Positions 9,901 to 30,961 of a DNA stretch of 64,000 bases are shown one piece after another. Position numbers and translations under genes: made by a program. The stretch comes from Parafrankia elaeagni (GTDB lineage: Bacteria > Actinomycetota > Actinomycetes > Frankiales > Frankiaceae). The notes beneath the pieces are model-generated. The model did no database searches. It had not been told where the DNA came from and saw only the letters and a list, made by a program, of their open reading frames with translations. The stretch covers positions 115,002 through 179,001 of the forward strand of contig NZ_KB893672.1 of assembly GCF_000374165.1 (NCBI RefSeq). The letters run 5' to 3'. Numbering within the stretch: position 1 is the stretch's first letter; each line of letters starts with the position of its first letter.

Positions 9901-11654
9901 ATCGCGAACGCGCCCGATCCGAGGGCCGGCTCGCAGATGGTCATCTTCAGGATGTCCGCGGCTCGGGTGGTAGTGCCGTCCTGGTCGAGCAGTTCCTCCA
10001 GCGCGTGGTGGACGACGGAGCGGGTGAGGACCTCTGGCGTGTAGTACGACGCAGACTGCTGCCGCTCCCGCCCGGCGAGGCGGTAGACGAACGACCCTCG
10101 GGGGTGCAGCCGCGGCTTCGGTTCGCCGGTGTTCTCGTCGCGGTCGAGGACGAACGAGTCGGCGGGCACGTCGTTGACGCGCTCGGCGGGCAGCAGCCAG
10201 GTGCCGCCGGAGGGGTCGCCGCCCTTCGCGACCTCGTACAGGTCGGTGTCGGCGATGATTCCCGACCAGGACATCAGCCCCTCGTAGACGGCGCCGAGCT
10301 GGTTGATGCCGAGTTCGCCGTAGGAGATGAACCCGCGGTCGCTGCCCTTCTTCACTTTCGTCAGCAGCAGGTGGCGCAGCACCCGCTGCAGTGCCTCGTT
10401 GCCCAGGCCCACCTCGTCGATGAGGGCCGTGGCATCCGCGGCGAACAGGTCGGAGCGCAGCGGCTGGAACACCAGCCCGTCCCCGGCCGGCGCCCCTGAC
10501 TCCGCGTCCGCGGTCTCGTCCGCAGCTGTGGTGTGGCCCTTGTCGACGAGGACGAACAGCTTGTGCAGTGACTCGTACAGGTGCCGGCCGCGGCGGGCCC
10601 GGTCCGACGACAGGTCGGTGAGGATCAGGTCCCGCAGCCGGTCCAGCCCGTAGCCGGCCTGGTACTCCGGTGCCTGGACGGGCAGCACCTCCAGCTGCGG
10701 CGACGCCTCCGCGTACAGCAGGAACAGGATCCGGTAGAGGAACCGCAGCGACTGCCGGGTCAGATCACGGCCCAGGTTCGGGACGTCGATGACGTCCAGC
10801 CCGGCCGCCTGCCGCCGCGCCACCACCTCGTTCGCGATGATCTCCACCGACAGGCGGACGCCCTCGCGCAGGTCCGCGGAGACGCCGACGGTGTGCTGCA
10901 CCGACTTCTCCAGCAGGCCCAGCCACGGGGCCACCCCGTCGTCGGCGGGCAGCAGCAGGTCCGGCCCGGCCATCGCGGCGACGTGCTCCAGCTCGCCGGC
11001 CGCCCGGACGTCGCGGCGGTCGACGACGACACCCAGGTCGACGGCGAGCCAGCGTCCCTCCGGCCACCGGCTGCGCTCGGCGAGCAGCACCCACCTGCCC
11101 GCCTGTACCAGCACGAACGGCGGGGCGTCGTCGGTCAGGAAGACGCTGGAGACGGCCTTCGCGACGGAGGCCTGCGGCTTGCCGTCGACGACCGCCGGGT
11201 CGAGGAGCTGCCCGATCCGCGGGCCGGCCGCGTCCGGCGTGGTCAGGATGTCCTCGACCGCCCCGGCGGGGGTTGCTTCCAGGATGAGCAGTGCCGTCCC
11301 GGTGGGGGAGGGGTGCACCGCCGCGGCGGGCAGCCGCACCTCGTCCCCGGAACGGTCCGACACCCAGGGCGTCGGCTCCCGGTCGAGCCGCAGCGCCCGG
11401 CGTACCTCCCGGTGCACCTCGCGGACGTCCTCGTCGGACGGCTGCTCGCCCAGCCCGCCGAACAGCCGGGCCAGCGGGGTGGCCGCGTCGCGCAGCGCCG
11501 AGCGGGCGGTGAGGTGGCCCTCGTCCTCCTCGGCCTTCCAGCGGGTGCGCAGGGCCAGCACCTCGGCGAGGAAGCTGCCGGTGCGGGCGTCCGAGGTCAG
11601 GTAGTGCTCGGAGATCCACGACTCGCCGACGATCACCGCGTCGAAGCTGGGCAT
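6945..11654 (-). CDS. Large N6-adenine DNA methyltransferase (type IIG / PglX / DrmMI-like), 1569 aa.
   Basis: Catalytic motif IV 'VGNPPWVRPDWDE' (NPPW). Size and architecture fit BREX PglX and DISARM DrmMI. The stop overlaps the helicase start (ATGA) and the start overlaps the SNF2 stop (TGATG). An internal low-GC patch at about 7.76–8.56 kb falls in the C-terminal, putative target-recognition part. Confidence 0.85.
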   Translation of the reverse strand: MPSFDAVIVGESWISEHYLTSDARTGSFLAEVLALRTRWKAEEDEGHLTARSALRDAATPLARLFGGLGEQPSDEDVREVHREVRRALRLDREPTPWVSDRSGDEVRLPAAAVHPSPTGTALLILEATPAGAVEDILTTPDAAGPRIGQLLDPAVVDGKPQASVAKAVSSVFLTDDAPPFVLVQAGRWVLLAERSRWPEGRWLAVDLGVVVDRRDVRAAGELEHVAAMAGPDLLLPADDGVAPWLGLLEKSVQHTVGVSADLREGVRLSVEIIANEVVARRQAAGLDVIDVPNLGRDLTRQSLRFLYRILFLLYAEASPQLEVLPVQAPEYQAGYGLDRLRDLILTDLSSDRARRGRHLYESLHKLFVLVDKGHTTAADETADAESGAPAGDGLVFQPLRSDLFAADATALIDEVGLGNEALQRVLRHLLLTKVKKGSDRGFISYGELGINQLGAVYEGLMSWSGIIADTDLYEVAKGGDPSGGTWLLPAERVNDVPADSFVLDRDENTGEPKPRLHPRGSFVYRLAGRERQQSASYYTPEVLTRSVVHHALEELLDQDGTTTRAADILKMTICEPALGSGAFAIEAVRQLAAAYLARAQDERDERIPAEQYPAELQRVKAYLALHQVYGVDLNATAVELAEVSLWLDTMQAGLAAPWFGLHLRRGNSLIGARRAVYAPALLKKKEWLTTVPTDVPLHDPALPDDSVPPVGAGIHHFLLPAAGWGAVVDTAEAKTYAPEARERLRAWRAGVLRTPGKEQQNRLARLAQRVEVLWELSRRRLQIAEAGIRRTTPVWGADGSAEPSTEPVTREQVEKVLNDPNSAYRRLRRAMDAWCALWSWPVTTEIPAPDLDAWLTGLEALLGKATKPGRNEKNGQSAFADDLSWAGLDDAEELDRTFAAARPVDEALHDIPWLRVAEEISDRQGFFHWELDFPQVFTHGGFDLQVGNPPWVRPDWDEAGVLAEHDPWWCLVPTAAEQEKTERRKRTFHLPAAETWYIDQRAEQAGLNAHLGSPIERPLLHGLQPDLYRCFMDRTWKSMNPRGITSLIHPESHFTETRAASLRLATYRQLRRHWQYRNERKLFPEIQHTRTFGTHVYGSPRDVTFLHASWLYEPQVIDRSLSHDSSGPQPGVRDEHGDWDTRPHQARITKVDRKALQTWADLLDEPGTSYEQARMLFPVNTSSAAVLAKLANAPRLGRLEISWTAGWHESADRQRGWFERRPSIPATWSNTILQGPHISVATPLFQQPTEISVKRQDIESINLEKISENFVPRTTYQRSKPAPEYHAAYPQWNGRPSSDSFRLAWRRMTDPATVRSLHAALIPPGPSHVNTVLTLSIPDPVDLIMAVGTWCSLTTDFFVKCAGSEVNQGLIRRFPHVRGHALEADLVLRTLRLNCLVRPYAPLWAELWDPAWREDRWVPGVGVAYRERAEIGEVSAEWEWGTPLRRAADRRQALVEIDAIVAVMLGLTADELVTVYRTQFPVLQDYERKARYDSFGRQLPADLAKQLDKATAAGERVHTLNGPDRNYAGPFSGVNRETDLRIAHEHFSRLTAEREAKKAQAEAHGQLPG

Positions 11655-14600
11655 CAGACGTTCCCCCCGTCGCTTTCGCTGCCGGAACCGCTGGTGGCCG
11701 CCGGGATCACGACGGCGGGGATCACGACGGCGAGCGGGCGCAGCAGCCGCTGGCTGGCGCGCAGCGAGCGCGCGATCTCCTCCTCGAGGCTGACCTGCTT
11801 CGACAGGCGGCGAACCTTCGCCAGCCCCGGCCCGGTCATGTCGAGTTCGAGCCGGGCGGCCTGCTCCCGCCAGCGGGTCCGCCGGTTCGACCAGCCGGCC
11901 AGCCGCCGTTCCAGGTCGGAGTGCTGGATGTCCTCGGCCATGTCGAGGGTGCGGGCCGCCGCGTCGATCGCGGCCGGCACCAGCGCGCGCAGCTCGTCGC
12001 TGACCGCCGCCGGGCCCGGGTTCACCGCCGGTTCCCGCTCGCCGGGCCCGGGGATCAGCCCGGTGCCCGCGAACAGCTCCAGTCCCTCGACGACCTGCGC
12101 GAGCGGCAGGTCGGCCCGGCCGGTCGGGAACTCGACGGCGACCATCTGGCGGGTCACGACCTGGCCGCGCCGGTTCATCAGCGTCGCGATCACCAGCACC
12201 CGCGGGGCGTCCACCGGCCCGCGCACCAGCGGCACCTCGTTGCGGCCGCCGGCCGCGAGCACCTTGTCCGCGGCCCAGTCGAGCACCGGGTGCAGGGGGG
12301 AGAGGAAATGAGCCTCCGGCCAGGTGGACGGGGTGGGCGCGGCGACCTCGCGGGCCTTCGCGGGACGTCCCGCGCGCTTCGCCGGGGTGAGACCCTTCGG
12401 CCCGCTCGCGGTCACCAGGGCCGACTGGGCCGGGGCGCCGCCGGCCTGCCCCTCGCGGGCCGCGCGTAGGCCGTCCAGCGCGACCGACGGGGTGACGGCG
12501 AGCAGCAGCTGCTCCCGGATCCCGCGCTCCGCGACGTACGACGCCGGCAGCGCGTCGAGGCGCACCCGCAGGTCGCGCGGCGGGCGCAGCGCGATCAGGC
12601 TCTTGTCCCGGAAGACCTTCCAGCCGACACCGCCGCGGGCCGGGTCCTTGTCGTCCGGCGCTCGGGTGGGATCGTCGTACACCTCGGCGACCGCGTCGGC
12701 GAGGAAATCGGCGTCGGTGGGGTACAGCGACTCACGCGGGCGGTCCGGGGGAACGGGCGGCAGGTCGTCACCGGCGGCGGCGAAATCCTCGTCGAAGAAG
12801 GAGTCGAAGAAGTCGTCGGCTCCGTGCCCCGCACCGGGGTCGGGCACGACCTCGTCCAGGTTCTGCCCGCGGGCGAGCGCGTCCCGGATCGCGTCTTCCT
12901 CGCCGCTCGCCGAATGCAGGTGCATCAGCGTCGCCGCGTCGCCCAGCGTCGTGTGGGCGAGGTGTTCCTTGGCCAGCAGGCGCTGCAACACCCGGATATC
13001 GCCGCTGAACCGGTCGTCGGAGGGCACCAGCGCCAGCGCCGTGATCCGCGGCGGGTGCTTCTGCCCGTACCGGTCGATCCGCCCGTTGCGCTGCTCGATC
13101 CTGATCAACGACCAGGGGATGTCGACGTGGATCAGGTGGTGGCACTGTGCGTGCAGGTTGACGCCCTCGCTGGCGACGTCCCCGGTGATCAGCAGCCGGA
13201 CGGGGCTCGCCGTCGTCTTGAAGTCGTCGACGATGCGCTCCTGCTCGACGTCCGGCAGGCCGCCGTGCATGACGGCGATCTGGTTGCGGGCGAGGCCCAG
13301 GAGGTCGGGCAGCTCGCGGGCGAGCCAGCGCAGGGTGGCGACCCGCTCGGCGAACAGCACCGCGCGGGTCGTCGAGCGGGCGCCGACACCGATGGTGCGC
13401 AGGTACTCGGCGAGCGCGGTGAGCTTGGCGCTCTCCCCGGCCAGGGCCAGCTCGGTGAGGTCGCGCAGCCGCTCGAGGGCCTGCCGTTCCGGCTCGTGAT
13501 CGCCGCCGCGCTGGGCGCCGCCGCCCTGGGCGGTGAGCCGCTTGAGGCGGGCCTCGGTGGTCTCCAGCAGCGCGGCGGGGGAGGAGAGGAACGCCTTCGC
13601 CAACGTCCACGGGAACAGCGCCGACCCGCGGCCCGCGACCGGGGACGGGCCGTCCTGCGGGTACAGCCAGGTCCGGGAGATCTCCGTGGCGATCGCGTCC
13701 TCCGCCGGCGAGGCGGCCACCGGGATCACCTCGGGCTCGGGGCGCAGCGCCCAGTCGGCGCCGACTTCCGCGGCGACCTCGGGGGAGTGGCGGTGCCGGC
13801 GGATGAACAGCCGCTCCACATCCGCGACGTCGTACTCGCCGTCCGGGCCGACGGCCGTCGGGTCGAGCAGCCGCAGCAGCTCCGCGAACGACTCCTTCTT
13901 CCCGTTGTGCGGTGTCGCCGACGCCAGGACCAGCGCCTCCGTGTTCGGCGCGAGAACCCGCGCGAGCTCGTTGTTCAGCGTGCCGGTGTTCGTCAGGTTG
14001 TGCGACTCGTCGATGACAACGACATCCCACCGGTGCCGTTCCAGAAAAGATCGGTACCGCGGCGATTTCAACGTGTCGATCGAGACGATGATGCGGCGGT
14101 AGAACGTGAACGGGTTCCGGCTCGCCGGCAGGTTCTGCCGCACCCGCTGCAGCCCGTCGCTGTCGAGCCGGACGAGCGGCAGCCCGAACCGGCACCACAG
14201 TTCGTGCTGCATCTGCTCCAGGACGTGCCGGGGCGTCACCACCAGCACCCGGTCGGCCCGCCCGCGCCGGGTCAGCTCCGCGAGGAGCATCCCGATCTCC
14301 AGGGTCTTGCCGAGGCCGACGGCGTCCGCGATGAGCACCCGGGGCCGCAGGTTCGCCGGGGACAGCGCGTGGGCGACCGCCCGTCGCTGGTAGTCGAGCC
14401 GGTCGACCAGCATCCCGTCGGCCACGGTCAGCGAGGTCTCGCCGGCCGGCATCGGCGTCCGGCGCAGGGTGGCCTCCAGCCACAGCCGGGTGCGCCGGTG
14501 CCGCGGGGAGCCGTCCGGGAGCAGCTCCGCCTCGCGGGGGTCCAGCAGCTCGATGTGGTCGAGCCCGCTGAAGAAGGTCGCCGTGGTCTCCCGCACGAGC

Positions 14601-14713
14601 TCACCGAGGCCGACCACCTCCAGCCGCCAGCCGTCCGTGCCCTGCTCGGCCCCTGTGACCAGCCACTCCTCGTCCCGGACCACCACGATCGAACCCGGCG
14701 CGAACGTCGTCAC
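11654..14713 (-). CDS. SNF2-family helicase/ATPase (DrmD-like).
   Basis: Motif I 'ADAVGLGKTLEIGML'; motif II 'VVIDESHNL'; 'LASATPHNG'; C-terminal helicase motifs. A GTG at 14713 is preceded by GAGGAG; the ORF track extends to 14755, so the alternative is a longer N-terminus. Confidence 0.85.
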   Translation of the reverse strand: MTTFAPGSIVVVRDEEWLVTGAEQGTDGWRLEVVGLGELVRETTATFFSGLDHIELLDPREAELLPDGSPRHRRTRLWLEATLRRTPMPAGETSLTVADGMLVDRLDYQRRAVAHALSPANLRPRVLIADAVGLGKTLEIGMLLAELTRRGRADRVLVVTPRHVLEQMQHELWCRFGLPLVRLDSDGLQRVRQNLPASRNPFTFYRRIIVSIDTLKSPRYRSFLERHRWDVVVIDESHNLTNTGTLNNELARVLAPNTEALVLASATPHNGKKESFAELLRLLDPTAVGPDGEYDVADVERLFIRRHRHSPEVAAEVGADWALRPEPEVIPVAASPAEDAIATEISRTWLYPQDGPSPVAGRGSALFPWTLAKAFLSSPAALLETTEARLKRLTAQGGGAQRGGDHEPERQALERLRDLTELALAGESAKLTALAEYLRTIGVGARSTTRAVLFAERVATLRWLARELPDLLGLARNQIAVMHGGLPDVEQERIVDDFKTTASPVRLLITGDVASEGVNLHAQCHHLIHVDIPWSLIRIEQRNGRIDRYGQKHPPRITALALVPSDDRFSGDIRVLQRLLAKEHLAHTTLGDAATLMHLHSASGEEDAIRDALARGQNLDEVVPDPGAGHGADDFFDSFFDEDFAAAGDDLPPVPPDRPRESLYPTDADFLADAVAEVYDDPTRAPDDKDPARGGVGWKVFRDKSLIALRPPRDLRVRLDALPASYVAERGIREQLLLAVTPSVALDGLRAAREGQAGGAPAQSALVTASGPKGLTPAKRAGRPAKAREVAAPTPSTWPEAHFLSPLHPVLDWAADKVLAAGGRNEVPLVRGPVDAPRVLVIATLMNRRGQVVTRQMVAVEFPTGRADLPLAQVVEGLELFAGTGLIPGPGEREPAVNPGPAAVSDELRALVPAAIDAAARTLDMAEDIQHSDLERRLAGWSNRRTRWREQAARLELDMTGPGLAKVRRLSKQVSLEEEIARSLRASQRLLRPLAVVIPAVVIPAATSGSGSESDGGNV

Positions 14714-15117
14714 GTAGCTCCTCGCCCCCCGATCCCCCATGCGCGAACGGCACAAGGGCGAGAAGTCACCCTATAGAGCCATCTATTTGCGCGAGTCGGG
14801 CCTGCCGATGGGGTGCGGAGAGCGACGGGGGCGGTCGGGTGAGGTCGCGGGCCGCCGGTGCATAGGCGCCGCATAGGCGCATAGCGGTCTGGGGCCCCTT
14901 CGTCGCACTCTGTGTGGGAGGTGGCATAAGGTGCCCGAAGGTGGGCGTACGCGGCAGCGCGTACGGGAGTGCCGATGGTGGGGGAGACGGTTCGGGCGGC
15001 AACGCCCTGCGCGTCGCCACGGCAGGCTGCATCCCACGACGAGGGGCACCGCGTCACCCCCGTGCCTGCCCCGAGGCCGCGGCACGCGGCGTCGGGTGGA
15101 GTGAGGGGGCGGGCGCG

Positions 15118-18100
15118 ATGGGGGCGAAGATCGTCGTCCATGGTCCGTGGAGCGGGCCGGGCGAGGAGAAGACCGCGGTCTACCTGCGCGATCATCTGGA
15201 CGAGCGGTGGACGGTCGTCTGCGGCCGCCAGCTCGTCGCCGGCTCGGGTACCCGTGACTCCGACTTCATCGTGGTCGGGCCGAACAGCGTCACCGTCATC
15301 GAGGAGAAGTCCTGGCGGGTCGACCTGATCGGCACCGAGGAGCGCTGGTACGAGCGCAGGACCATGGAGGAGCGGGGCAACCCGATCAACCAGGCCGTCG
15401 GTGTCGCCCGGATCCTCGCCGGCAACCTCACCCGCTATGACCGGCAGCTCGCCTCCGCGCTCAGGAGCGCCGCGCCGCCTGGCCAGAAGCAGCTGCACCT
15501 CGTCCACTCGCTGGTCGTGATGTCCTCACCCGAGGTCACCTTCCAGATCGAGGACCCGCGGGCGTCGAGCCAGGTCGTGCGGCTCGACGGCTGCGAGAAG
15601 CGCCTGCGCGAGATCGACCGCTCGGTCGCGGCGCACTTCGACCTGGCCCCGTTCCGCGAGGCGGTCCTGTCCGTCGTCACCGGTCTGCGGCCGCGGCCGG
15701 AGCTGCCGAAGATGCTCGGCGCCTACGAGATCGTCGGCAACCTCGAGCCGACCCCGCGGGGCCCCCGCTACGTCGGCAGGCATCCGGACGGCTCGGTGCG
15801 GGTGCTGCTCACCTACGAGCGCCAGGGCCTCACCGAGGCCGAGCTCAAGGCGAGCGACGAGCTGATCCTGCGCGAGTACGAAGCGATGCGGCGCCTCGCC
15901 CACCTGCATCGGGTCTTCCCCGTCGACCCGTACTTCGGCGTCCACGACGACCAGATGTGGGTCGCTCCGATGCGTCCGCCGGGCCCGAGCCAGAAGACGC
16001 TGCGTTATCTGATCCGGGCCGGGCGGCAGCCGTCGGCCGCCACCTTCGCCACCATCGCCGCGGACGCGTTCGCCGGGCTCGCCGACATCCACGCGGCGGG
16101 CATCACCCACCGGGCGCTGAACCCGAGCCGGATCCTGGTGACCCCGGAGACCAGCCGGGTCGTGTTCTCCGACTTCCTGATCGCGAAGATCGCGGACGAG
16201 CGCACGGTGATCGACGCGGACGACGTCGACCACGACGGCGGGCCGTTCCGGGCCCCGGAATGCCGACGCACCGCGCACCTGGCCATCCACCCGTCGGACG
16301 TCTACTCGCTGGCGCTGTGCCTGCTCGGCTGGTGGGAGCTGCGCCAGTCCGACCCGCCGCGCGAGCCGCAGGCGCCGCCGTCCCTGCCGGACCGGGTCCG
16401 CGCGGCGCTGAACGAGTGCTTCGCCGCGCTGCCGCAGGACCGCCCGTCGGCCCGCGAGGTGGCGGACCTGCTGGCCGCGCACCTGGCCGAGGAGCGCAAG
16501 CGCCTGGTGCGCCCCGCGCCGGGCGTGAAGATCGGCAAGTACGAGCTGGTGCGCCAGCTCGGTGACGGTGCCACCGCCACCACCTGGCTCATGCTCGACC
16601 GCGCGTTCGACGTCCACCACACGCTCAAGATCATGAAGTCGGCCGAGCTGGTGGACAACCTGCGCGGCGAGTTCGTCCTGCTGCACAAGCTCAAGCACGA
16701 CCGGATCGTCCGGGTGCACGACTACCTGCTCGAACCGCCCGGCCCGGCACTGATCTCCGAGTACGTCGAGGGCCGCACCGTCGCCCAGCTCGCGCCCCGG
16801 CTGCGCGGCAGCCTCGGCGCCGCCCGCCGGATCCTCGCCGACATCCTCGACGCGCTCGCGTATGCCCACCACCGTGATGTGCTGCACCGCGACCTGTCCC
16901 CGAACAACATCATCGTCGACGCGGACGACCGGGCGACCCTGATCGACTTCGGGGTGGCCTCCCGCGCGGAGGGCGAGGCGCACAGCCTGGTCGGCACGCT
17001 GCCCTACCAGGCGCCGGAGATCGCGGCGGACGGCGCCTGGTCGCCGGCGGCGGACCTGTACTCGCTGGCCGTGCTGGTCTTCGAGGCGCTCGTCGGCCGC
17101 CTGCCCTACGCGGTCGACGGAGCGCAGCGCAACAAGTACCTTCTCGTCGCCCCGTCGCCGGAGGAGATCGCGGCGGCGGGCACCGCCGGCACCATGTTCC
17201 TGGACGTCCTGGCCCGCGCCAGCCACCCGGACCCGGCGACCCGCTTCCCCTCCGCGGCAGCGTTCCGGGACGCCGTCGAGGCCGCGTTCGAACCGCCGCC
17301 CCTGCCGCCCCCGCAGGCGCTGCCGTTCCCGCCGGCCCTGTCGTTCCCGCCGGCCCCGCCGTCGACGCCGGCCGGGGCGGCCCTGCCAGCGGAGAGCGCG
17401 GAGACCGTACGGCTGGCCGTCCCCGCGCAGACCGACGCGGAGGCGCCGTCGTCCGCGGCTACGACAGCACCGGCAGCAGTGACAGCACCGGCAGCAGTGA
17501 CAGCACCGGCAGTGGTGGCGGTGCCGGCAGTGGTGGCGGTGCCGGCAGCGGCGGTGCGACCGACGGCGGTGGGGACGCCCGCCGACCAGGCGCAGCGTGA
17601 GCTGGTCGTCAACCCGGCCGTCGACGAGATCCGGCAGCTGTTCCGCAACAGCAGACTCGGCAACCGGGGCAACCGGGGACTGGACTCCGAGTTCGCCGAC
17701 CAGACCTACATCCCGACCCGTCTCGACGACAGGCTGATGCCGCGGATCATCGACCATCGGCCCCGGCTCGTCGTCTTCAGCGGGAACCCGGGTGACGGGA
17801 AGACTGCATTCTTGGAACGGCTCGGTGTCGAGCTGCGGCGCCGCGGCGCGCGCGTCCTGGAGAGCGACGCGGCCGGCTGGCGGATGACGCTCGACGGGCA
17901 CGAGTTCGCCTCGGTCTACGACGCCAGCGAGTCGCACGAGGGCATCTCGGCGGACCAGCTGCTGCGCCGTGCGCTCGACCCGCTCAACGACCAGGCCAGG
18001 GACGGTCGCTACACCGCGCTGCTGGCCGCGAACGACGGCCGCCTGCTCGACTTCTTCGACCGCGAGGCCCACCGTTACCCGCGGATCACGCAGGTGCTCG

Positions 18101-19341
18101 GCGGTGGCGCCGGGACCGACGCCGACGCCGGGGGCGGCGCAGAGGCCGAGGCCGGTGCCGGTGGAACCGGGAACGCCGCGGGTGTGCTGCGGATCGATCT
18201 CAAAGGCCGGTCGATGGCGTCGGTGGGCCTGGCAGCAGGCTCGCTGACGGTGCGCATGCTCGACGCGCTGCTGACCGACGAGCTGTGGGCGGCGTGCGGC
18301 GGCTGCGCGGCCGAACACCGCTGCCCGATCGCGGCCAACGCCCGCGGCCTGCGTGACGGGCGGGTCCAGGAGCGGCTGCACCGGCTGGTGCTCACCTCGC
18401 ACCTGCGCCGCGGCCGCCGCCCCACGATCCGTGATCTGCGTTCGGCGCTCGCCTACCTGGTGACCGTCGACCTGGGCTGCACCGACATCCACGCCGAGTT
18501 CGGTGACGGTTTCGGGAATCCCGCCCGCCCGGAGCGGCACTTCAGCGCGGCAGCGTTCGGTGCCGAGGCCGGGCGCGACCGGCTGCTCGACGAGTGGCGC
18601 AGCCTGGACCCCGCAGCGGTGCCGGCGCCGCGGGTGGAGCGGTGGCTGGCACCCGGCACCCGTTCCCCGGCGGACATCGCCCGCGCCAAGCGGCTCCGGT
18701 ACTTCACCGCGACCGACGCGGAGCTCGCCGCCGTCGACCACCTCGGCCCGTACCAGCATCTCGACGAGTTCCGCGCCCTGCTCGCCAAGCCCACCCCCGG
18801 CCCCGGCGGTGCCGACGCAGGCCCCGGCGCGGCAGGCCCCGAGGCGGCAGGCCCCGGCGCGGCAGGCCCCGGGGCGGCGGGGCACCGGGTCGCGGTGGTG
18901 TCGAAGCTGCTGCGCGGCCTGTCACGCTGCATCGGGCCGGTCGGCTACGACGGCGACGGGGTCGCGGTCTCGGTGGGCGAGCCCTCCGAAGAGGGCGGCG
19001 CGGTCGTCAAAGTGCTGCCCACCGACGAGTTCGACGTCGTCGTGGCGGACGTCGACGACCGGTTCGTCGAGACGGCGGCCGACATCGTCATCCTCCGGCA
19101 CCGTTCCGGGCAGGTGAGCCTGCCGGTCGACGTCGACCTGTTCGAGCTGCTGATGCGCGCGAACGCCGGCTTCCTGCCGACCAACCCCGAGGTCGCGCCG
19201 CTGCTGGAGGAGCTGGGCCTGTTCCGCTCCGGCCTCACCCTCCAGCCAGCCAGCCGGGTGATCATCATCGAGCCTGACGGCCGGCGGAACGTCATCAGGG
19301 TGACCGGAACGACCATCGAGCTGCTGCGGGACGTCCGATGA
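15118..19341 (+). CDS. Multidomain NERD nuclease-like domain, degenerate (pseudo)kinase, active Hanks-type Ser/Thr kinase, Ala/Pro-rich linker and P-loop NTPase protein; PglW-like.
   Basis: NERD-like 'EKTAVYLRDHL...DSDFIVVGPNSVTVIEEKSW'. Kinase 1 is degenerate ('ITHRALNPSRILV', 'SDF'). Kinase 2 is canonical ('LKIMK', 'VLHRDLSPNNIIVD', 'DFG', 'GTLPYQAPE'). C-terminal Walker A 'VVFSGNPGDGKTAFL'. An ATG at 15118 follows a GAGGGGG Shine-Dalgarno; the upstream 68 ORF codons are Gly-rich junk. The stop overlaps the next start (ATGA). Confidence 0.8.
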   Translation: MGAKIVVHGPWSGPGEEKTAVYLRDHLDERWTVVCGRQLVAGSGTRDSDFIVVGPNSVTVIEEKSWRVDLIGTEERWYERRTMEERGNPINQAVGVARILAGNLTRYDRQLASALRSAAPPGQKQLHLVHSLVVMSSPEVTFQIEDPRASSQVVRLDGCEKRLREIDRSVAAHFDLAPFREAVLSVVTGLRPRPELPKMLGAYEIVGNLEPTPRGPRYVGRHPDGSVRVLLTYERQGLTEAELKASDELILREYEAMRRLAHLHRVFPVDPYFGVHDDQMWVAPMRPPGPSQKTLRYLIRAGRQPSAATFATIAADAFAGLADIHAAGITHRALNPSRILVTPETSRVVFSDFLIAKIADERTVIDADDVDHDGGPFRAPECRRTAHLAIHPSDVYSLALCLLGWWELRQSDPPREPQAPPSLPDRVRAALNECFAALPQDRPSAREVADLLAAHLAEERKRLVRPAPGVKIGKYELVRQLGDGATATTWLMLDRAFDVHHTLKIMKSAELVDNLRGEFVLLHKLKHDRIVRVHDYLLEPPGPALISEYVEGRTVAQLAPRLRGSLGAARRILADILDALAYAHHRDVLHRDLSPNNIIVDADDRATLIDFGVASRAEGEAHSLVGTLPYQAPEIAADGAWSPAADLYSLAVLVFEALVGRLPYAVDGAQRNKYLLVAPSPEEIAAAGTAGTMFLDVLARASHPDPATRFPSAAAFRDAVEAAFEPPPLPPPQALPFPPALSFPPAPPSTPAGAALPAESAETVRLAVPAQTDAEAPSSAATTAPAAVTAPAAVTAPAVVAVPAVVAVPAAAVRPTAVGTPADQAQRELVVNPAVDEIRQLFRNSRLGNRGNRGLDSEFADQTYIPTRLDDRLMPRIIDHRPRLVVFSGNPGDGKTAFLERLGVELRRRGARVLESDAAGWRMTLDGHEFASVYDASESHEGISADQLLRRALDPLNDQARDGRYTALLAANDGRLLDFFDREAHRYPRITQVLGGGAGTDADAGGGAEAEAGAGGTGNAAGVLRIDLKGRSMASVGLAAGSLTVRMLDALLTDELWAACGGCAAEHRCPIAANARGLRDGRVQERLHRLVLTSHLRRGRRPTIRDLRSALAYLVTVDLGCTDIHAEFGDGFGNPARPERHFSAAAFGAEAGRDRLLDEWRSLDPAAVPAPRVERWLAPGTRSPADIARAKRLRYFTATDAELAAVDHLGPYQHLDEFRALLAKPTPGPGGADAGPGAAGPEAAGPGAAGPGAAGHRVAVVSKLLRGLSRCIGPVGYDGDGVAVSVGEPSEEGGAVVKVLPTDEFDVVVADVDDRFVETAADIVILRHRSGQVSLPVDVDLFELLMRANAGFLPTNPEVAPLLEELGLFRSGLTLQPASRVIIIEPDGRRNVIRVTGTTIELLRDVR

Positions 19342-21017
19342 CACTGCGCATACCCAGGGAGCTGCGCTCCTACCAGTTCGACCGGCTGACCGGCGTCGAG
19401 CTGAACGACTTCGACGTCGACCGGTTCCTGCCCGTGCTGTTCGAGATGGTGGAGACGAAGGGCCGTCGGTTGGCCCGGTCGAACGCCGACGCGACGGATC
19501 CGGACAGGTACGTCGAGGCGCTCGCCGCGCACCCGAACCTGCACGGCTTCGACGACGAGCACGGCCGCGCGGTGCTGACACAGTGGGTCAACAGCAGCGT
19601 CGTCCGGCTCGGCCACAGCGGCCGTGGCCACCGGGACGTCCAGCTGGCCGCCGTCCAGCCGATCCACATCGGCGCCTACCGCGCCGGCCTGCCGGTCGAG
19701 GGCACCCGGCACCGCAAGGTGCACCTGGTCGTCTACCGGCTGCTGAAGGACGCGCTGCTGCGCCGCGGCGCCACCGACCCGGAGCAGACGCTGCAACGGC
19801 TGTTCCGGGAGGCGTTCGGCCGCGGTGTCACGATCGACTCGCAGTTCGTCCCCGCCTTCGACGGGAAGACCGACGACCTCGACGCGAACGTCCTGCTCAG
19901 CCTCTACTACCTGGAGGGCTTCCAGCCCGGCAAGGTGCTGACCCGCCGGACCGAGCTCGACTGGAGCCCGGTCATGCCCGGGTTGATGATCTCCCTCGGC
20001 GACCTGCTGCTCGACTTCCTCACCGTCTACCGCAACCGGCTGCCCACGACCGCGCTGGCGCGTCACCTGGCCGCGCTGCTCAACATCGGCCTGTTCACGA
20101 TGACGCTGCGGCTGTTCAGCGTGGTCGGCGAGCTGTGCCGCGGCGGGGACGGCGGGGGCGGCGGCGACGGCGAGAACCGGCCGCTGCCGGCCGACCTCAG
20201 CCGCGACCTGCATCCCGCCCGCACCGAGATCTACGTCGACTTCACCCGCCAGACCGGCGGTGACTCCGACCGGCTGGCCGGCGAGTGCGTCGCCCGCGAC
20301 CTGGAACGGCTGCCCGCCTACTTCGAGGACATGATCCTGCTCAAGACCCTCGACCGGTACGCGAGCAGCGAGCAGAAGCTCCGGCCGTACGTGGAGGGCC
20401 GGCGCGGCCCGGACTGGCTGGTCGCCCTGGTCGGGATCCGCGACCTCGAATACGTCGAGTGGCGCGCGGGCCTGGACCTCGAACGGATCGTCGACACGAC
20501 CCGGGCCGAGCTGCGGACGTCCGAGGAGGACGCCCGGGCGGAGCTGGCCGGCCTCGCGCCCGGCGGGTCGCAGCTGGACGTCCTGCTCGCGGCACTGCGC
20601 CAGTCCCAGGCGTCGAAGGCGGTGACCAGCGCCGGTAGCTGGCTGTGGAACACCGGTGGCCTGCGCAAGCAGGCAGGGCTGCTGCGCGGGAACCTGCACG
20701 GCCGGCGGGCGTGGCGGTACGCGATGACCGACGAGCTGCTCACCACCATGCTGTTGACCACCCTGATGGACCGGGCGGCCGGCGCCCCGGCGCCCCGGGT
20801 GCGACTGGCCGACCTGCTCGACACCCTGGAACACCGCTGGGGCCTGCTGATCCACCGTCCACCCGCCGCGCGCGACGACGCGTCCGCGCGTGCGGTCGCG
20901 AGCCAGAACCTGGCGGCCTTCACCGGCCGGCTGCACCAGATGGGCTTCTTCGCTGACCTCGCCGACGACTTCAACGCCCAGTATGTGATCAACCCCCTTG
21001 CCGGAGCGCGGCGATGA
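19338..21017 (+). CDS. Hypothetical 559-aa protein, middle gene of the kinase operon; no recognisable domain.
   Basis: Its start overlaps the upstream stop (ATGA) and its stop overlaps the downstream start (ATGA). GC3-rich codon usage on this strand. Confidence 0.6.
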   Translation: MTLRIPRELRSYQFDRLTGVELNDFDVDRFLPVLFEMVETKGRRLARSNADATDPDRYVEALAAHPNLHGFDDEHGRAVLTQWVNSSVVRLGHSGRGHRDVQLAAVQPIHIGAYRAGLPVEGTRHRKVHLVVYRLLKDALLRRGATDPEQTLQRLFREAFGRGVTIDSQFVPAFDGKTDDLDANVLLSLYYLEGFQPGKVLTRRTELDWSPVMPGLMISLGDLLLDFLTVYRNRLPTTALARHLAALLNIGLFTMTLRLFSVVGELCRGGDGGGGGDGENRPLPADLSRDLHPARTEIYVDFTRQTGGDSDRLAGECVARDLERLPAYFEDMILLKTLDRYASSEQKLRPYVEGRRGPDWLVALVGIRDLEYVEWRAGLDLERIVDTTRAELRTSEEDARAELAGLAPGGSQLDVLLAALRQSQASKAVTSAGSWLWNTGGLRKQAGLLRGNLHGRRAWRYAMTDELLTTMLLTTLMDRAAGAPAPRVRLADLLDTLEHRWGLLIHRPPAARDDASARAVASQNLAAFTGRLHQMGFFADLADDFNAQYVINPLAGARR

Positions 21018-24000
21018 CCGATCTCAGCCCCCTGCTGGCCACCCGGGTCGCCCACCGGCTGGTGACCGACTTCCTGCAGGCAGCACCCCCCGGCCGCTGC
21101 CTGCGGCTCGATCACCTTCGCCTCGACGACTGCCATGCGGTACGCGACGCGGCGATCGCCGCACTCGCCGAAACAGCGATGGGCGCCGGCTGCGTGGTCG
21201 CCGTCCTCGGCACCGACGTCAGCGCCAGCGACGCGATCGTCTCCCCCGAACGCGCGATCGAGCTGCGTAACCGCAAATCGACCGCGCTCCTGCTGCTCGT
21301 GCCCGCGGGCACCGACAGCCCGGCGGCCAGCAGCCTGGACAACTCGTTCGAGTCGATCGACATCGAGGACCTGTTCGGGAAGATCATTCGGGACGCGCTG
21401 CAGCCGCTTGACCGGCCCCTGCGAGAGCTGTTCGCCGAAGTCCAGGCGGCGGCGCGCGGCAACGCGTTCCCACGCTCACGCCAGGCCCGGGCCGAGTACC
21501 TGCTCGCCGTCGGTGCCACCGCCGCCGACCCGGTCGCGGGCGGCCTCGCGGCCGCGCAGCACGTCGCCGGAACGCACCTGCACCTGTTCGGCCTGATCCC
21601 GGACCAGGGCGGCGCGTCATTCGTCTCCCGGCTCGCCGCGAACGCCCAATGCGTCAAGGAACTGGTCAAACCGGCCCGCTCGCAGACGGACGCACGCACC
21701 CGGCTCGCGGAATGCCCGCTGCGCCAGGACGACGAGCGCTACCGCGAGATCGAGCGGTACCTCGTCGCACTGCCCCGCCTGTCCCAACGGGCGTGGCTGC
21801 GCGACCTGGCCTCCGACGACAACGCCGACCTGGCCTTCAACCGCTGGCCGCTGGACCTCCCCACCGACAGCGACCTGATGGCGCTGCAGGTCGAGCCGTT
21901 CGCCAACGCCGAAGGGATCATCGCGGCGAGCACCGGCCTGCGCGCCGGCGCGGACGGCGAGGCACCCACCTGCTCGGCCCGCGGCGGCTTCGTGAAGATC
22001 ACCTGGACGACGGAACCCGCCAAGCCGAAGGACGTGGCCCGCTGGCAGGTGGAGATCATCCCGTCGGAGGAGTTCTACGGCGCCGAAACCGATTTCGACG
22101 TCACCCTGCCCGCGGCGAAGGTAGCCGGCAGCAGGCACAGCCACCGGCTGACGGTGAACGTCGACACCGAAGAGGCCGAACGGGTGCCGGCGCTGGTGAC
22201 CGTCCGGGTCAGCGCCCTGGACCGCAACAACCAGGTGCTGCGGCTGCGTGACGGTGCCCCCGCCCAGGCCACCAGCAAGGAGTTCGCGCTCGACGACGCG
22301 CCGCCGCCGGAGAGCACCGCCGTCCGGCGCGACACCGCGGTCTCCCTGCCGGTGGCGCGGCTGCGCGCCGAACAGGCCGGCGCGGACACCGACATCGAGA
22401 CGCCCGAAGGCTGGCAGACCGCCGACCTGGCCTACCTGCAGCTGCGCTTCGGCCGGGGCAGCAGGACACACCTCACCCGGATCGGAGTGAGCGCACCGCT
22501 GCGCGAGCTGTCCACGCGCGTACTCGCCGAGCCGGAGACCGTCGGCAGGTACGAAGCCGAGGTGGGCGGCGGCCAGCTGCTCGCCGCGGCGACCGCCACC
22601 GCGGCCGGCCCCGACTGGCCATCGGGCGCGGGCCGGGCGTTCCTCGCCGCCCGCCGGGAGTTCTTCGAGGCGGTCCGCGCCCAGCCCGGTCGCGGCCTGC
22701 TCGAAGTCGCCGCCGTCTCCGACGAGCTGGCCGCGCTCGGGGCGAAGTACACCGCTGCCTACGGACGGATCCTGCGCCGGGACTCCAGCGCCCCCGACCC
22801 GCGGGTGCTCACCTCGATCGACACCCTTCGGCTGCGCATCCGCCTCGGCCGGCGCCACCCGGTGGACGCCCTGATCATGCTGCCCACCCATCCGCTGCGC
22901 GTTGCCTGGTACCTCGGCTACCACGCCGAGCTGGAACAGTGGCGCACGAAAATGCGGACACTGGCGGCGAAGGACCGCCGCGACGACGCCGACCTCGACC
23001 TGCTCGCCAGGCTGTCACCCGCCCGGCTGCCGTTCCTGCTCGCCGGCCCGGACGGCGCGCCCCACGTGTTCGCGCAGAACCTGCGGCTGCTCTACGGGCT
23101 GTACCTACCCGTGGACGAGGCTGACCCGGCGACGGCTGTCAGCGAGACGGTGACCGTGCTCGGCCTGCCGAGCGCCGATGCCAGCGTCGGCGAAGTGCCG
23201 CCCGCCCGGCTCGCCGACCGCATCCGGCTCTACCGGAACACTCACCGCAGCCCCGAGCGGCTGCGGATCCTGGCGACCAACCCGGGCAGCGGCGAGTTCC
23301 TCGGTGAGGCCCTGCGCGTCGTCACCGCCGACACCGGCGATCTCGCTGACACGGGCGACCCCGCCGGCACCGGCACCGGCACCGGCACCGGCACCGGACG
23401 CGAGCTCGGCGAGGACGAGGCCGTCACGGCGCCACACGTCTGGATCGAGGTGTTCGGCGAGGGCGCCTCGGAGACGAACCCGCTGCCCGGCCTGCGCCAG
23501 CTGCAGCGCGACATCGCCGACAACCGCACCCGACGGAGCAGCGACTTCCTCGACCCGGCGCTGGAGATCTCCGCCGCCCCCTTGGACGCGATCGAAGCAG
23601 CCCGGGACGCCCATCTGGCGGTGCTCGCCGACATCAGCCGCCCCCAGCTGCACATGAGCGTCGCCGAAACCAGCGGCGGCAGCGTCTCCTTCCGTGGGCT
23701 CATTACCCAGCTGGTTACCCGACGCGACCCGACCGAGCTCGCCTGGGACGTGGGGATCGAGTTCCCCACGGCGCGCGGCGCGGACTCCACACCCGTCACC
23801 GACCTGCACCGTCGCTTCGCCGAAACCGTCTCAAGCCTGTTCACCGCCGGCGGGGACGAGACGACGAGCGGAGACCGTACGGCGGCCAGCGCCGACCCGG
23901 CTGACCCGGCTGACCCGGCTGACCCGGCGAGGGACGACCGGGCCATGCGGACGGCCCGGATCCGAGTCCAGGTCGACGGCGACACCCGACGGGTGCTCGG

Positions 24001-27137: not shown

Positions 27138-27285
27138 GGCGTCTTGTTCCTTCCGCCGCGTCCGCCCACGTCTGCCCGCGTGTGCGGTTTTCCGTCAGGC
27201 CATTCGATCGCGTGCCAGGCGCCAGGTCCAGCGGAACGTCGCGCCGAGGGCGCGGGTGGCGGGAGGCTCGCCGTGCCGGCCGGGT

Positions 27286-30504: not shown

Positions 30505-30945
30505 GTGCATTCCTCCGCCGATCCGCCCGGTGCGGCACTGTTCGATCGCGTCGAGCTGGGCGCGTCCTTCCGCGTGGCGCTGGCCGTTGTGGCGGTCGCG
30601 CTGGCGCTGGTGGGCGTCTGGCTCCTGGTCCGTCTGCTGCTCTTCCCGCTGCGCAGGCTGCGTGGGCTGCGGGGGCGCGGGGTGGCCTCCTCCCGCACCG
30701 AGCTGACGGGTCGGGTGTGCGTCATCCGCACCGGCCGGGTGGGCCCTGAGTTCGGCCAGGCGGAGGTCAGGGCGGCCGACGGGTCGTCCGCGCTGGTCCA
30801 GGTGCGACATCCGAACCTCAACCCGTTGCTGCAGGCGGGCAGTTCCGCCGTGATCTACAGCTATGACCCTGCCGGCGAGTTCTTCTGGGTGAGCCCGCTG
30901 GACTTCACCCGTGAGCTGGACCGCGACCTCCCCGCGGCCGACTGA
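30505..30945 (+). CDS. NfeD-family membrane protein (OB-fold partner of SPFH/flotillin).
   Basis: N-terminal transmembrane segment 'VALAVVAVALALVGVWLLVRLLL' followed by a β-rich OB-like region 'GRVCVIRTGRVGPEFGQAEVRAADGSSALVQVRH'. Lies immediately upstream of the flotillin gene. GTG start. Confidence 0.6.
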   Translation: MHSSADPPGAALFDRVELGASFRVALAVVAVALALVGVWLLVRLLLFPLRRLRGLRGRGVASSRTELTGRVCVIRTGRVGPEFGQAEVRAADGSSALVQVRHPNLNPLLQAGSSAVIYSYDPAGEFFWVSPLDFTRELDRDLPAAD

Positions 30946-30961
30946 GAGCGTAGGAAAGCAG

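What the first reader, a model, noticed from the sequence alone, without database searches (positions are those of the whole stretch)
15700..17150. Tandem kinase with a degenerate first domain (HRA/SDF) followed by a canonical catalytic domain
The first kinase-like domain has Ala in place of the catalytic Asp ('HRALNPSRILV') and SDF in place of DFG. The second domain keeps VAIK-like 'LKIMK', HRD 'HRDLSPNN', DFG and the APE-like 'PYQAPE'. A pseudokinase-plus-kinase tandem suggests regulated or decoy-based sensing, analogous to PglW and to plant tandem-kinase immune proteins.
Basis: seen in the sequence. Interest (0 to 1): 0.55.

Follow-up and report, generated by a model that had tools for sequence, protein, structure and literature searches.

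The report
MAD6 defence kinase with pseudokinase domain

Summary
The motifs are all at the stated coordinates. They lie in one 1407-aa gene (15118..19341, +). Its order is NERD nuclease, kinase-like domain 1, kinase domain 2, Ala/Pro linker, DndF/SspF-like P-loop, variable C-terminus.

Domain 1 is a real protein-kinase fold (Pfam above threshold; AlphaFold pTM 0.86; all top PDB matches are kinases). It has Ala at the catalytic Asp, Arg at the catalytic-loop Asn, Leu at the beta3 Lys and no Gly-loop. None of 91 relatives from four or more phyla has the catalytic Asp.

Two corrections. The DFG Asp is retained (the motif is DFL, not SDF). Domain 2 keeps Lys/Glu/Asp/Asn/Asp in 90 of 91 relatives but has Ser for the HRDxK lysine, which is Bud32/RIO-like rather than strictly canonical.

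The gene passes NCBI's MAD6 model (502 bits, cutoff 460). It is translationally coupled to MAD7 (443, cutoff 410) and a 1744-aa DndH-like HerA protein. That triad recurs in about 80 of 85 related loci.

The NERD-pseudokinase-kinase cassette is collinear with PglW and was described for DndF and PglW in 2024-2026 papers. The role of the pseudokinase remains untested. Verdict: already known, low interest.

The parts
15118..19341 (+). MAD6 / DndF-family gene, 1407 aa. The mechanical ORF opens at GTG 14914; the likely start is ATG 15118.
   Evidence: ORF listed. Homologues align from residue 1-3 of the ATG-15118 product. A purine-rich GAGGGGG lies upstream. NCBIfam NF047741 MAD6 scores 502.4 bits against a cutoff of 460.
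15160..15522 (+). NERD (PD-(D/E)xK-type nuclease) domain, aa 15-135.
   Evidence: Pfam NERD 51.6 bits, cutoff 22.1. D49 and K64 are conserved in 91/91 and 90/91 relatives, and E62/E63 are conserved acidic positions.
15709..16512 (+). Kinase-like domain 1, a pseudokinase (aa 198-465). Motifs HRA (H331-R332-A333, nt 16108) and DFL (D352, nt 16171).
   Evidence: Pfam scores. Alignment to PknA. AlphaFold model pLDDT 85.8, pTM 0.86. All top Foldseek PDB hits are protein kinases, TM 0.65-0.79. The catalytic Asp is absent in 91/91 relatives.
16531..17352 (+). Kinase domain 2, predicted active (aa 472-745). K504 (nt 16627), E518, H590-R-D592 (nt 16885), S594 in place of the catalytic-loop Lys (nt 16897), N597, D610-F-G (nt 16945), APE (nt 17008).
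   Evidence: Pfam Pkinase 126.7 bits. K, E, D, N and D are conserved in 90/91 relatives; position 594 is S48/T21/K21.
17353..17604 (+). Ala/Pro-rich low-complexity linker with in-frame 18-bp tandem repeats (17463-17548).
   Evidence: Tandem Repeats Finder. dN/dS is about 1 against Frankia homologues. The length is variable among homologues.
17605..18507 (+). DndF/SspF-like P-loop (nucleotide-kinase-like) domain. Walker A GNPGDGKT at nt 17782-17805. Walker-B-like hhhhND (AANDGR).
   Evidence: PADLOC SspF hits at 1.5e-18, 3.5e-16 and 1.8e-14. Walker A Lys-Thr (K895, T896) and the N972-D973 pair are conserved in at least 90/91 relatives. An Asn in Walker B is the stated hallmark of DndF (PMC10853773).
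18508..19341 (+). Variable C-terminal region of the DndF-like half, including an in-frame 15-bp repeat at 18817-18889.
   Evidence: The SspF profile hits extend into this part. No Pfam or PDB match. Repeats.
19338..21017 (+). MAD7 (DndG/SspG-like) gene. Its start overlaps the MAD6 stop by 4 bp.
   Evidence: NCBIfam NF047733 scores 442.8 bits, cutoff 410. PADLOC mad7 9.4e-12 and SspG 4.6e-07. Present directly downstream in 81/85 related loci.
21014..26248 (+). DndH-like / MAD8-like 1744-aa protein with a C-terminal HerA/FtsK ATPase. Its start overlaps the MAD7 stop by 4 bp.
   Evidence: PADLOC DndH 1.5e-25 (aa 1393-1678 on profile 1334-1643 of 1715) and mad8 1.9e-17. PDB hits to HerA and DptH 7ES4. 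The NCBIfam MAD8 model reaches only 52 bits against a cutoff of 175. Present in 78/85 related loci.
85..14755 (-). Divergent three-gene operon, a candidate modification/helicase arm. It comprises a DrmD-like SNF2 helicase (11654..14755), a type IIG-like restriction-methylase fusion (6945..11654) and a 2287-aa DEAD+MZB helicase (85..6948).
   Evidence: PADLOC and Pfam hits. The same arrangement sits beside the triad in Parafrankia, Frankia nepalensis and Georgenia. Functional linkage is inferred, not shown.

Best explanation
The flagged region is the centre of a MAD6 protein. MAD6 is the DndF-family subunit of a MADS / DndFGH-type DNA-restriction module, here in a Parafrankia-like actinomycete.

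Shown here. The protein reads NERD nuclease, pseudokinase, kinase, disordered linker, DndF/SspF-type P-loop nucleotide-binding domain, variable C-terminus. It is translationally coupled to MAD7 (DndG-like DNA binder) and to a DndH-like giant protein with a HerA/FtsK motor. Domain 1 has a full kinase fold but lacks the catalytic base, the catalytic-loop Asn, the beta3 Lys and the Gly-loop. This state is ancient, fixed across the family, and still under purifying selection. Domain 2 keeps the Lys-Glu-Asp-Asn-Asp set.

Inferred, partly by analogy:
- MAD6-7-8 form a complex like DndFGH. The HerA motor and nuclease domains act on DNA that lacks the host's mark.
- The DndF-like half of MAD6 senses a nucleotide or an invader factor.
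- Domain 2 autophosphorylates or phosphorylates partners, as shown for PglW. This either licenses restriction or acts with NERD as a backup effector that sacrifices the infected cell (abortive infection).
- The pseudokinase is a non-catalytic regulatory or scaffold partner of domain 2, as in the JAK JH2-JH1 pair.
- The host mark may come from the divergent type IIG-like methylase operon.
For: Motifs and domain scores.

Catalytic-residue mapping. Domain 1 has no Asp at the HRD position in 91 of 91 relatives (A70/G15/S4/N1/L1). Domain 2 keeps K504, E518, D592, N597 and D610 in 90 of 91.

Fold: the tandem model has pLDDT 84.4 and its best PDB hit is the TYK2 pseudokinase-kinase 4OLI. Domain 1 alone has pTM 0.86 and all top hits are kinases, including the STK40 pseudokinase.

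Selection: dN/dS is 0.42-0.64 for domain 1 and 0.22-0.43 for domain 2, against about 1 for the linker.

Family membership: MAD6 scores 502.4 (cutoff 460) and MAD7 442.8 (cutoff 410). A Frankia homologue is named MAD6 by NCBI. SspF profiles hit the C-terminal half, and the Walker B Asn matches the DndF description in PMC10853773.

Operon: 4-bp start/stop overlaps. The triad is conserved in 81 and 78 of 85 loci across Actinomycetota, Chloroflexota, Planctomycetota and Acidobacteriota.

Literature:
- mad6, mad7 and mad8 are each required for defence in P. aeruginosa. The PADLOC hit table in that preprint's supplementary file 3, apparently the row for the operon's kinase gene, lists PglW (8.7e-70) together with SspF (4.3e-23) and weak DndF hits (bioRxiv 10.1101/2023.03.30.534895 and supplements).
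- The PglW kinase autophosphorylates and is required for Pgl (PMC4365076).
- NERD plus inactive plus active kinase is described in DndF and PglW.
Against: - There are no experimental data for this protein or this lineage.
- Domain 2 lacks the HRDxK lysine (Ser594). The equivalent K677A mutation abolishes PglW autophosphorylation, so activity is predicted, not certain.
- The NCBIfam MAD8 model is far below its cutoff on the third gene (52 against 175).
- Mad1-5 homologues are absent from the window.
- A DNA methylase lies within 10 kb in only a minority of related loci: N6_Mtase in 3 of 16 sampled, and the window's own methylase type in about 6 of 85. The 'methylation-associated' logic may therefore not apply to this clade.
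- The inter-domain geometry of the tandem is not confidently predicted (pTM 0.52).
Confidence: 0.8

Rival explanations
1. The protein is PglW, the kinase subunit of a type 2 BREX (Pgl) system.
For: The N-terminal 750 aa are collinear with PglW profiles. NERD, domain 1 and domain 2 map to positions 47-164, 223-414 and 512-771. The domain order is the same as published for PglW.
Against: The NCBIfam PglW model scores 127 bits against a cutoff of 990. The C-terminal half is an SspF/DndF-like P-loop with an intact Walker A, not the three wHTH plus inactive STAND domain of PglW. No pglX, pglY or pglZ is present in the window; the methylase hits the PglX models at only about 24 bits. The downstream genes are MAD7 and DndH-like.
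Confidence: 0.03
2. It is the DndF subunit of a classical phosphorothioate-dependent DndFGH/SspFGH restriction system. The self mark would be PT made by dnd/ssp genes elsewhere in the genome, and the neighbouring methylase operon would be an unrelated defence system.
For: SspF, SspG and DndH profile hits. The Walker B Asn is typical of DndF (PMC10853773). A methylase is absent from the flanks of most related loci. The literature states that DndFGH is often decoupled from its modification genes.
Against: No dnd or ssp modification gene was detected among the larger ORFs of the 64-kb window that were scanned. DndF profiles themselves are not significant (E about 0.06). The curated MAD6 and MAD7 equivalog models pass their cutoffs. 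The same methylase-plus-SNF2 operon sits beside the triad in distantly related actinobacteria (Georgenia, Frankia).
Confidence: 0.12
3. Domain 1 is not dead. It would be an atypical active kinase or ATPase using non-canonical residues, as WNK, CASK or Bud32-like enzymes do.
For: It keeps the DFG Asp in 67 of 91 relatives, the alphaC Glu in 82 of 91, and the His-Arg of HRD in at least 90 of 91. Of the 91 relatives, 22 have Lys at the beta3 position. It is under purifying selection.
Against: The catalytic Asp is absent in 91 of 91 and the catalytic-loop Asn in 90 of 91. There is no Gly-rich loop. In this protein the beta3 position is Leu. For PglW, only the second domain has a predicted ATP site, and mutating that domain alone abolishes autophosphorylation.
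Confidence: 0.07

Closest known systems
MAD6 of the Methylation-Associated Defence System (MADS; Pseudomonas aeruginosa SMC4386; bioRxiv 10.1101/2023.03.30.534895)
   Same: It passes NCBI's curated MAD6 equivalog model. It is followed by MAD7 and a HerA-type third protein. The PADLOC hit table in the MADS preprint's supplementary file 3, apparently for the operon's kinase gene, shows PglW-like hits together with SspF/DndF-like hits, which implies the same overall architecture.
   Different: The accessory genes differ. There is no Mad1 (HTH), Mad2/Mad5 (type I-like methylase and specificity subunit), Mad3 (OLD/Toprim-like) or Mad4 (DUF4276). Instead there is a divergent operon with a type IIG-like methylase fusion, an SNF2 helicase and a DEAD+MZB helicase. 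The third gene scores below the MAD8 cutoff and looks like full-length DndH.
DndF/SspF variants with N-terminal NERD plus inactive plus active S/T/Y kinase (Rakesh, Aravind and Krishnan, NAR 2024; PMC10853773)
   Same: The domain order is exactly the one described: NERD, inactive kinase, active kinase, P-loop kinase with intact Walker A and Asn in Walker B, variable C-terminal domain. The operon with DndG-like and DndH-like (HerA) proteins also matches.
   Different: No PT modification genes are nearby. Sequence similarity to canonical DndF profiles is marginal; the SspF profiles hit better.
PglW of type 2 BREX / Pgl (Streptomyces coelicolor; PMC4365076, PMC12839542)
   Same: The N-terminal cassette (NERD, atypical or inactive kinase, Hanks-type kinase) is homologous and collinear. 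PglW provides the only biochemical evidence, namely autophosphorylation needed for defence.
   Different: The C-terminal half and the partner genes are different. PglW has the catalytic-loop Lys (K677, essential), whereas this protein has Ser there.
JAK-family JH2-JH1 (for example TYK2, PDB 4OLI) and plant tandem-kinase resistance proteins
   Same: A pseudokinase lies immediately N-terminal to an active kinase in one chain. TYK2 JH2-JH1 is the top structural match of the tandem model.
   Different: These are an analogy only. Sequence identity is about 15%, the inter-domain rmsd is 25 A, and there is no evidence of common descent of the tandem or of the same regulatory logic.
Mokosh MkoA variants carrying the same cassette (P0019 / L089)
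   Same: NERD, pseudokinase and kinase lie at the N-terminus.
   Different: The C-terminus is a further kinase plus a Upf1-type helicase (PADLOC MkoA, 840 bits) instead of the DndF core. This shows that the cassette is a mobile module.

Membership tests
MAD6 (MADS) | Score at or above the curated cutoff of NCBIfam equivalog NF047741 (460 bits). | tested here: met
   502.4 bits, E 1.8e-150. The model covers NERD, domain 1 and the N-lobe of domain 2.
MAD6 (MADS) | Encoded directly upstream of MAD7 (NF047733, cutoff 410). | tested here: met
   442.8 bits for 19338..21017, with a 4-bp overlap with the MAD6 stop.
MAD6 (MADS) | Followed by MAD8, a HerA-type ATPase (NF047742, cutoff 175). | tested here: inconclusive
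   Only 52 bits on the N-terminus. However, PADLOC mad8 scores 1.9e-17 and DndH 1.5e-25 on the C-terminal HerA domain.
MAD6 (MADS) | Operon also carries Mad1-5 (HTH, N6 methylase, OLD-like, DUF4276, specificity subunit). These are accessory in the authors' detection model. | tested here: not met
   No such hits among the window ORFs scanned. A type IIG-like methylase operon is present instead.
MAD6 (MADS) | Required for phage defence. | not testable with these tools
   Shown only for P. aeruginosa mad6.
DndF/SspF (DndFGH, SspFGH) | Derived P-loop kinase core with intact Walker A and Asn in Walker B. | tested here: met
   GNPGDGKT and AANDGR; the Walker A Lys-Thr and the N-D pair are conserved in at least 90/91 relatives. 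The feature is as stated in PMC10853773.
DndF/SspF (DndFGH, SspFGH) | Significant match to family profiles. | tested here: inconclusive
   SspF profiles at 1.5e-18 to 1.8e-14, but DndF profiles only at E about 0.06.
DndF/SspF (DndFGH, SspFGH) | Operon with DndG/SspG-like and DndH-like partners. | tested here: met
DndF/SspF (DndFGH, SspFGH) | Linked phosphorothioate modification genes (dndABCDE or sspABCD). | tested here: not met
   None detected among the larger ORFs of the 64-kb window that were scanned. They may lie elsewhere in the genome.
PglW (BREX type 2) | N-terminal NERD plus inactive kinase plus active kinase. | tested here: met
   Collinear hits to PglW profiles.
PglW (BREX type 2) | Score at or above the NF033442 cutoff (990 bits), and a C-terminal triple wHTH plus inactive STAND domain. 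| tested here: not met
   127 bits. The C-terminal half is SspF-like with an active-looking Walker A.
PglW (BREX type 2) | Neighbouring pglX, pglY, pglZ, brxD and brxHI. | tested here: not met
   Not found; there are only weak PglX and BrxH similarities in the divergent operon.
Pseudokinase (domain 1) | Protein-kinase fold. | tested here: met
   Pfam scores above gathering cutoffs. pTM 0.86, and all top PDB matches are kinases.
Pseudokinase (domain 1) | Loss of at least one of the beta3 Lys, the HRD Asp or the DFG Asp. | tested here: met
   The HRD Asp is Ala (0/91 relatives have Asp). The beta3 Lys is Leu here. The DFG Asp is retained.
Active Hanks-type kinase (domain 2) | Beta3 Lys, alphaC Glu, HRD Asp, catalytic-loop Asn and DFG Asp all present. 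| tested here: met
   K504, E518, D592, N597 and D610, each present in 90/91 relatives.
Active Hanks-type kinase (domain 2) | HRDxKxxN catalytic-loop Lys. | tested here: not met
   Ser594; the family census is S48/T21/K21. This resembles Bud32/RIO loops, with NCBIfam Bud32 at 4.7e-11 and Pfam RIO1 at 8.6e-05.
Active Hanks-type kinase (domain 2) | Phosphotransfer activity. | not testable with these tools
   Needs an in-vitro assay.

The most novel reading that the evidence does not exclude
In the Frankia/Parafrankia lineage, and in Georgenia, the MAD6-7-8 restriction triad may have exchanged the type I-like Mad2/Mad5 marking arm for a DISARM-class-1-like operon: a DrmD-like SNF2 helicase, a type IIG-like methylase fusion and a DrmA/DruE-like DEAD+MZB helicase. 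That would make a hybrid MADS/DISARM system. Within it, the conserved pseudokinase would act as an allosteric switch or integrated decoy that gates the NERD nuclease and the Bud32-like kinase when a phage factor binds.
Probability: 0.15. Interest if true: 0.55.

Novelty: already known. Interest (0 to 1): 0.22.

Why it matters
There is little new in kind. The tandem pseudokinase-kinase in NERD-bearing DndF/MAD6 and PglW proteins is published, and NCBI already has curated models that name this gene and its neighbour.

The check does add three things:
- a clean residue-level census, showing that the first domain never has the catalytic Asp in 91 relatives, and that most second domains have Ser or Thr instead of the catalytic-loop Lys that is essential in PglW;
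- evidence that the pseudokinase is under purifying selection;
- the observation that this lineage pairs the triad with a DISARM-like methylase/helicase operon.

What the kinase pair does in MADS, DndFGH or Pgl immunity is still unknown. Any such locus could serve for that experiment, but this one offers no special advantage.

Tried and rejected
- A profile of domain 1 alone, searched against the 5.8-billion-protein set, returned only short generic Ser/Thr kinases. No PglW or MAD6 appeared. This confirms that domain 1 is kinase-derived but says nothing about its relationship to PglW.
- tblastn of the N-terminal 750 aa against plasmids found only generic kinases matching domain 2. No plasmid-borne MAD6 or PglW was recovered for direct alignment.
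- A regular-expression census for N6-methylase motifs in the flanks missed the window's own methylase, so it was discarded as insensitive. It was replaced by a Pfam batch scan of flanking ORFs.
- The promoter and terminator scan of the divergent intergenic region found nothing. The sigma-70 consensus is probably not informative in this 72% G+C actinomycete.
- PDB sequence searches with the DndF-like half and with MAD7 gave no significant match.
- A conserved Thr in the domain-1 activation loop, seen in the 13-sequence alignment, did not hold up in the 91-sequence alignment because of loop misalignment. It was dropped.
- Kwon et al. 2019 on pseudokinases is not in the library.
- Rejected readings: a PglW/BREX-2 identity, and an artefact or chance motif match.
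Full report
**Observation.** The window is about 72% G+C. A single + strand ORF spans 14914..19341. Homologues align from the ATG at 15118, which follows a purine-rich stretch. The protein is therefore taken as 1407 aa, 15118..19341. Residue numbers below use that start.

**Is domain 1 kinase-like?** Yes.
- Scanned alone, aa 198-465 scores 35.2 bits on Pfam Pkinase (cutoff 31.7) and 39.1 bits on PK_Tyr_Ser-Thr (cutoff 23.1).
- It finds 488 PDB kinase sequences at E-values up to 1, the best being PknA at 2.5e-06.
- An AlphaFold model built from 11 homologues has pLDDT 85.8 and pTM 0.86.
- All top Foldseek PDB hits are protein kinases aligned over the whole domain (TM 0.65-0.79), including the STK40 pseudokinase.
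- The two-domain model (pLDDT 84.4) has the TYK2 pseudokinase-kinase 4OLI as its best hit. The inter-domain geometry is not reliable (pTM 0.52, rmsd 25 A).

**Which residues are lost?** Three independent alignments agree: phmmer against PknA, BLASTP of domain 1 against domain 2, and the family alignment.
- HRALNPSR lies on HRDxKPxN, so the catalytic Asp is Ala, the catalytic-loop Lys is Asn and the catalytic-loop Asn is Arg.
- FSDFLIAK lies on xxDFGxAx. The DFG Asp is therefore retained and only the Gly is lost.
- The Gly-rich loop is absent, and the beta3 Lys position is Leu here.

I added 73 full-length homologues recovered from one-genome-per-species contigs to the first 18 sequences, giving 91 distinct sequences.
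- The HRD-Asp position in domain 1 is A70/G15/S4/N1/L1, never Asp.
- The catalytic-loop Asn is present once in 91.
- The DFG Asp position is D67/N16.
- The beta3 position is K22/L17/R17/M15.

The degenerate state is therefore ancient and fixed, not a local decay. His331, Arg332, Phe353 and the SDVYSLA helix are nearly invariant in domain 1, and the APE motif is largely conserved. Against Frankia homologues, dN/dS for domain 1 is 0.42-0.64. The values are 0.22-0.43 for domain 2 and about 1 for the Ala/Pro linker. Domain 1 is thus a conserved, selected pseudokinase.

**Domain 2.** K504, E518, D592, N597 and D610-F-G are each present in 90 of 91 relatives, so catalysis is predicted. It is not fully canonical, because the HRDxK lysine is Ser594 (family census S48/T21/K21). 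This HxDx(S/T)xxN loop resembles Bud32/RIO-type kinases. It probably explains the secondary hits to Bud32, RIO1, Kdo and APH models. In S. coelicolor PglW, the 'invariant lysine' K677, described as lying in the catalytic-loop core, is essential for autophosphorylation and for defence (PMC4365076). The substitution is therefore worth testing.

**What the whole protein is.**
- N-terminal to the kinases is a NERD nuclease domain (51.6 bits). Its active-site Asp and Lys are essentially invariant, and the E62/E63 positions are conserved acidic residues.
- C-terminal to a repeat-containing Ala/Pro linker is a P-loop domain. It has Walker A GNPGDGKT and a Walker-B-like AANDGR, conserved in at least 90 of 91 relatives.
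- That half hits PADLOC SspF profiles at 1.5e-18 to 1.8e-14, and DndF profiles only marginally.
- An intact Walker A together with an Asn in Walker B is exactly how Rakesh, Aravind and Krishnan describe the DndF core. They also report DndF variants with successive wHTH, NERD, inactive and active S/T/Y kinase domains (PMC10853773).
- The 2026 BREX survey states that PglW and a subset of DndF proteins share the identical tripartite NERD, inactive kinase, active kinase arrangement (PMC12839542).
- Here NERD, domain 1 and domain 2 hit the PglW profile collinearly. The whole-protein PglW score is 127 bits against a cutoff of 990, so this is not PglW.

**Family and operon.**
- NCBI's curated equivalog for the MADS kinase MAD6 is passed (502.4 bits, cutoff 460).
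- The next gene (19338..21017, 4-bp overlap) passes MAD7 (442.8 bits, cutoff 410).
- The third gene (21014..26248, 4-bp overlap) is a 1744-aa protein. Its C-terminal HerA/FtsK ATPase matches DndH (1.5e-25), mad8 (1.9e-17), and solved HerA and DptH structures. It stays below the MAD8 cutoff.
- The closest proteins are from Parafrankia (89% identity) and Frankia. One of them is already named 'methylation-associated defense system protein kinase MAD6'.
- In P. aeruginosa, mad6, mad7 and mad8 are each required for defence. Mad7 was linked to DndG and Mad8 to HerA. The PADLOC hit table in the preprint's supplementary file 3, apparently for the operon's kinase gene, lists PglW together with SspF/DndF. 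That points to the same architecture as here.

**Distribution and context.**
- One scan of 185,579 species genomes gave 195 relatives, most of them full length. They come from Actinomycetota, Chloroflexota, Planctomycetota, Acidobacteriota and other phyla.
- Among 85 loci, a MAD7-like gene follows directly in 81 and a DndH-like gene in 78. The exceptions are mostly loci cut short by contig ends (confirmed with called genes).
- A UvrD-like helicase of about 525 aa ends at the MAD6 start in 30 of 85 loci, but not here.
- In this window the upstream neighbour is a divergent operon. It holds a DrmD-like SNF2 helicase, a 1569-aa type IIG-like restriction-methylase fusion (PADLOC 1330 bits) and a 2287-aa DEAD+MZB helicase.
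- The same operon flanks the triad in Parafrankia, F. nepalensis and Georgenia. Other methylases occur in some loci.
- In a Pfam batch scan of the flanks of 16 diverse loci, only 3 had an N6_Mtase hit.
- No Mad1-5 homologue and no dnd/ssp modification gene was found among the window ORFs scanned.
- The modification arm of this clade is therefore variable and partly unknown.

**Mechanism.** The domain anatomy, the loss pattern, the conservation and the operon are shown. The rest is inferred:
- By analogy with DndFGH (a reading from the literature), MAD6-7-8 act as one restriction complex driven by the HerA motor.
- The DndF-like half senses a nucleotide or an invader factor.
- Domain 2 autophosphorylates or phosphorylates partners as PglW does. 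This licenses restriction or, together with NERD, serves as a backup effector that sacrifices the infected cell.
- The pseudokinase regulates or scaffolds domain 2.

I put the identity and architecture at about 0.9 and this functional sketch at about 0.4.

**Rivals.**
- A PglW/BREX-2 identity fails its membership tests.
- A phosphorothioate-dependent DndFGH reading cannot be excluded without knowing the rest of the genome, but the curated models and the conserved methylase neighbour disfavour it.
- An active, atypical domain 1 is unlikely given 0 of 91 catalytic Asp.

**Novelty.** The finding is correct but already known. The architecture is published for DndF and PglW, and the gene family has curated NCBI models. 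The residue census, the Ser-for-Lys catalytic loop and the DISARM-like partner operon are modest additions.

Noticed in passing
window 85..14755 (- strand): A divergent three-gene operon resembling class 1 DISARM without DrmC. It holds a DrmD-like SNF2 helicase (11654..14755), a 1569-aa type IIG-like restriction-methylase fusion (6945..11654; PADLOC PDLC03611, 1330 bits) and a 2287-aa DEAD+Helicase_C+MZB(DUF1998) helicase closest to DruE/DrmA (85..6948). The same set flanks the MAD6-8 triad in Parafrankia, Frankia nepalensis and Georgenia.
   Followed up: partly
window 16897 (Ser594 of the MAD6 protein): The catalytic-loop lysine of the 'active' kinase domain is Ser here, and Ser or Thr in 69 of 91 relatives. 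This gives a Bud32/RIO-like HxDx(S/T)xxN loop. The equivalent lysine (K677) is essential for PglW autophosphorylation.
   Followed up: partly
window 27286..29667 (- strand): A NERD plus UvrD-type helicase (PADLOC 'NERD+UvrD' C3a187, GajB-like) lies just beyond the triad, after a DUF427 gene (26328..27194). In 30 of 85 related loci, a UvrD-like helicase of about 525 aa sits immediately upstream of MAD6 instead.
   Followed up: partly
window 30911..38351 (+ strand): An SPFH/Band-7 protein (709 aa) overlaps the start of an 1844-aa DUF3686 + DUF7902 + AAA ATPase. This may be another defence-island gene pair. There are no PADLOC hits.
   Followed up: no
window 17463-17548, 18817-18889, 23364-23397, 24943-25115: In-frame tandem repeats (units of 6 to 30 bp) lie in low-complexity linkers of MAD6 and the DndH-like gene. 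They account for the length difference from Parafrankia homologues (1407 against 1327-1370 aa). The MAD6 linker evolves neutrally (dN/dS about 1).
   Followed up: partly
L089:1091-6775 (protein P0019): The same NERD-pseudokinase-kinase cassette is fused to a Mokosh MkoA-like third kinase plus a Upf1-type helicase (PADLOC MkoA, 840 bits). The cassette is therefore a mobile module shared by PglW, MAD6/DndF and MkoA-type proteins.
   Followed up: partly
window about 18286-18324 (aa 1057-1069 of MAD6): A nearly invariant W-x2-C-x2-C-x5-C cluster sits in the DndF-like half. It may be a small metal-binding element.
   Followed up: no
window 40207..41613, 53593..54756, 56193..60314: An IS605-family OrfB/TnpB-like gene (Cas12f-like TNB domain), a Fic-domain protein and a 1373-aa DUF6603 protein lie further along the window. 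Ordinary TrkH/TrkA and metabolic genes sit between them.
   Followed up: no
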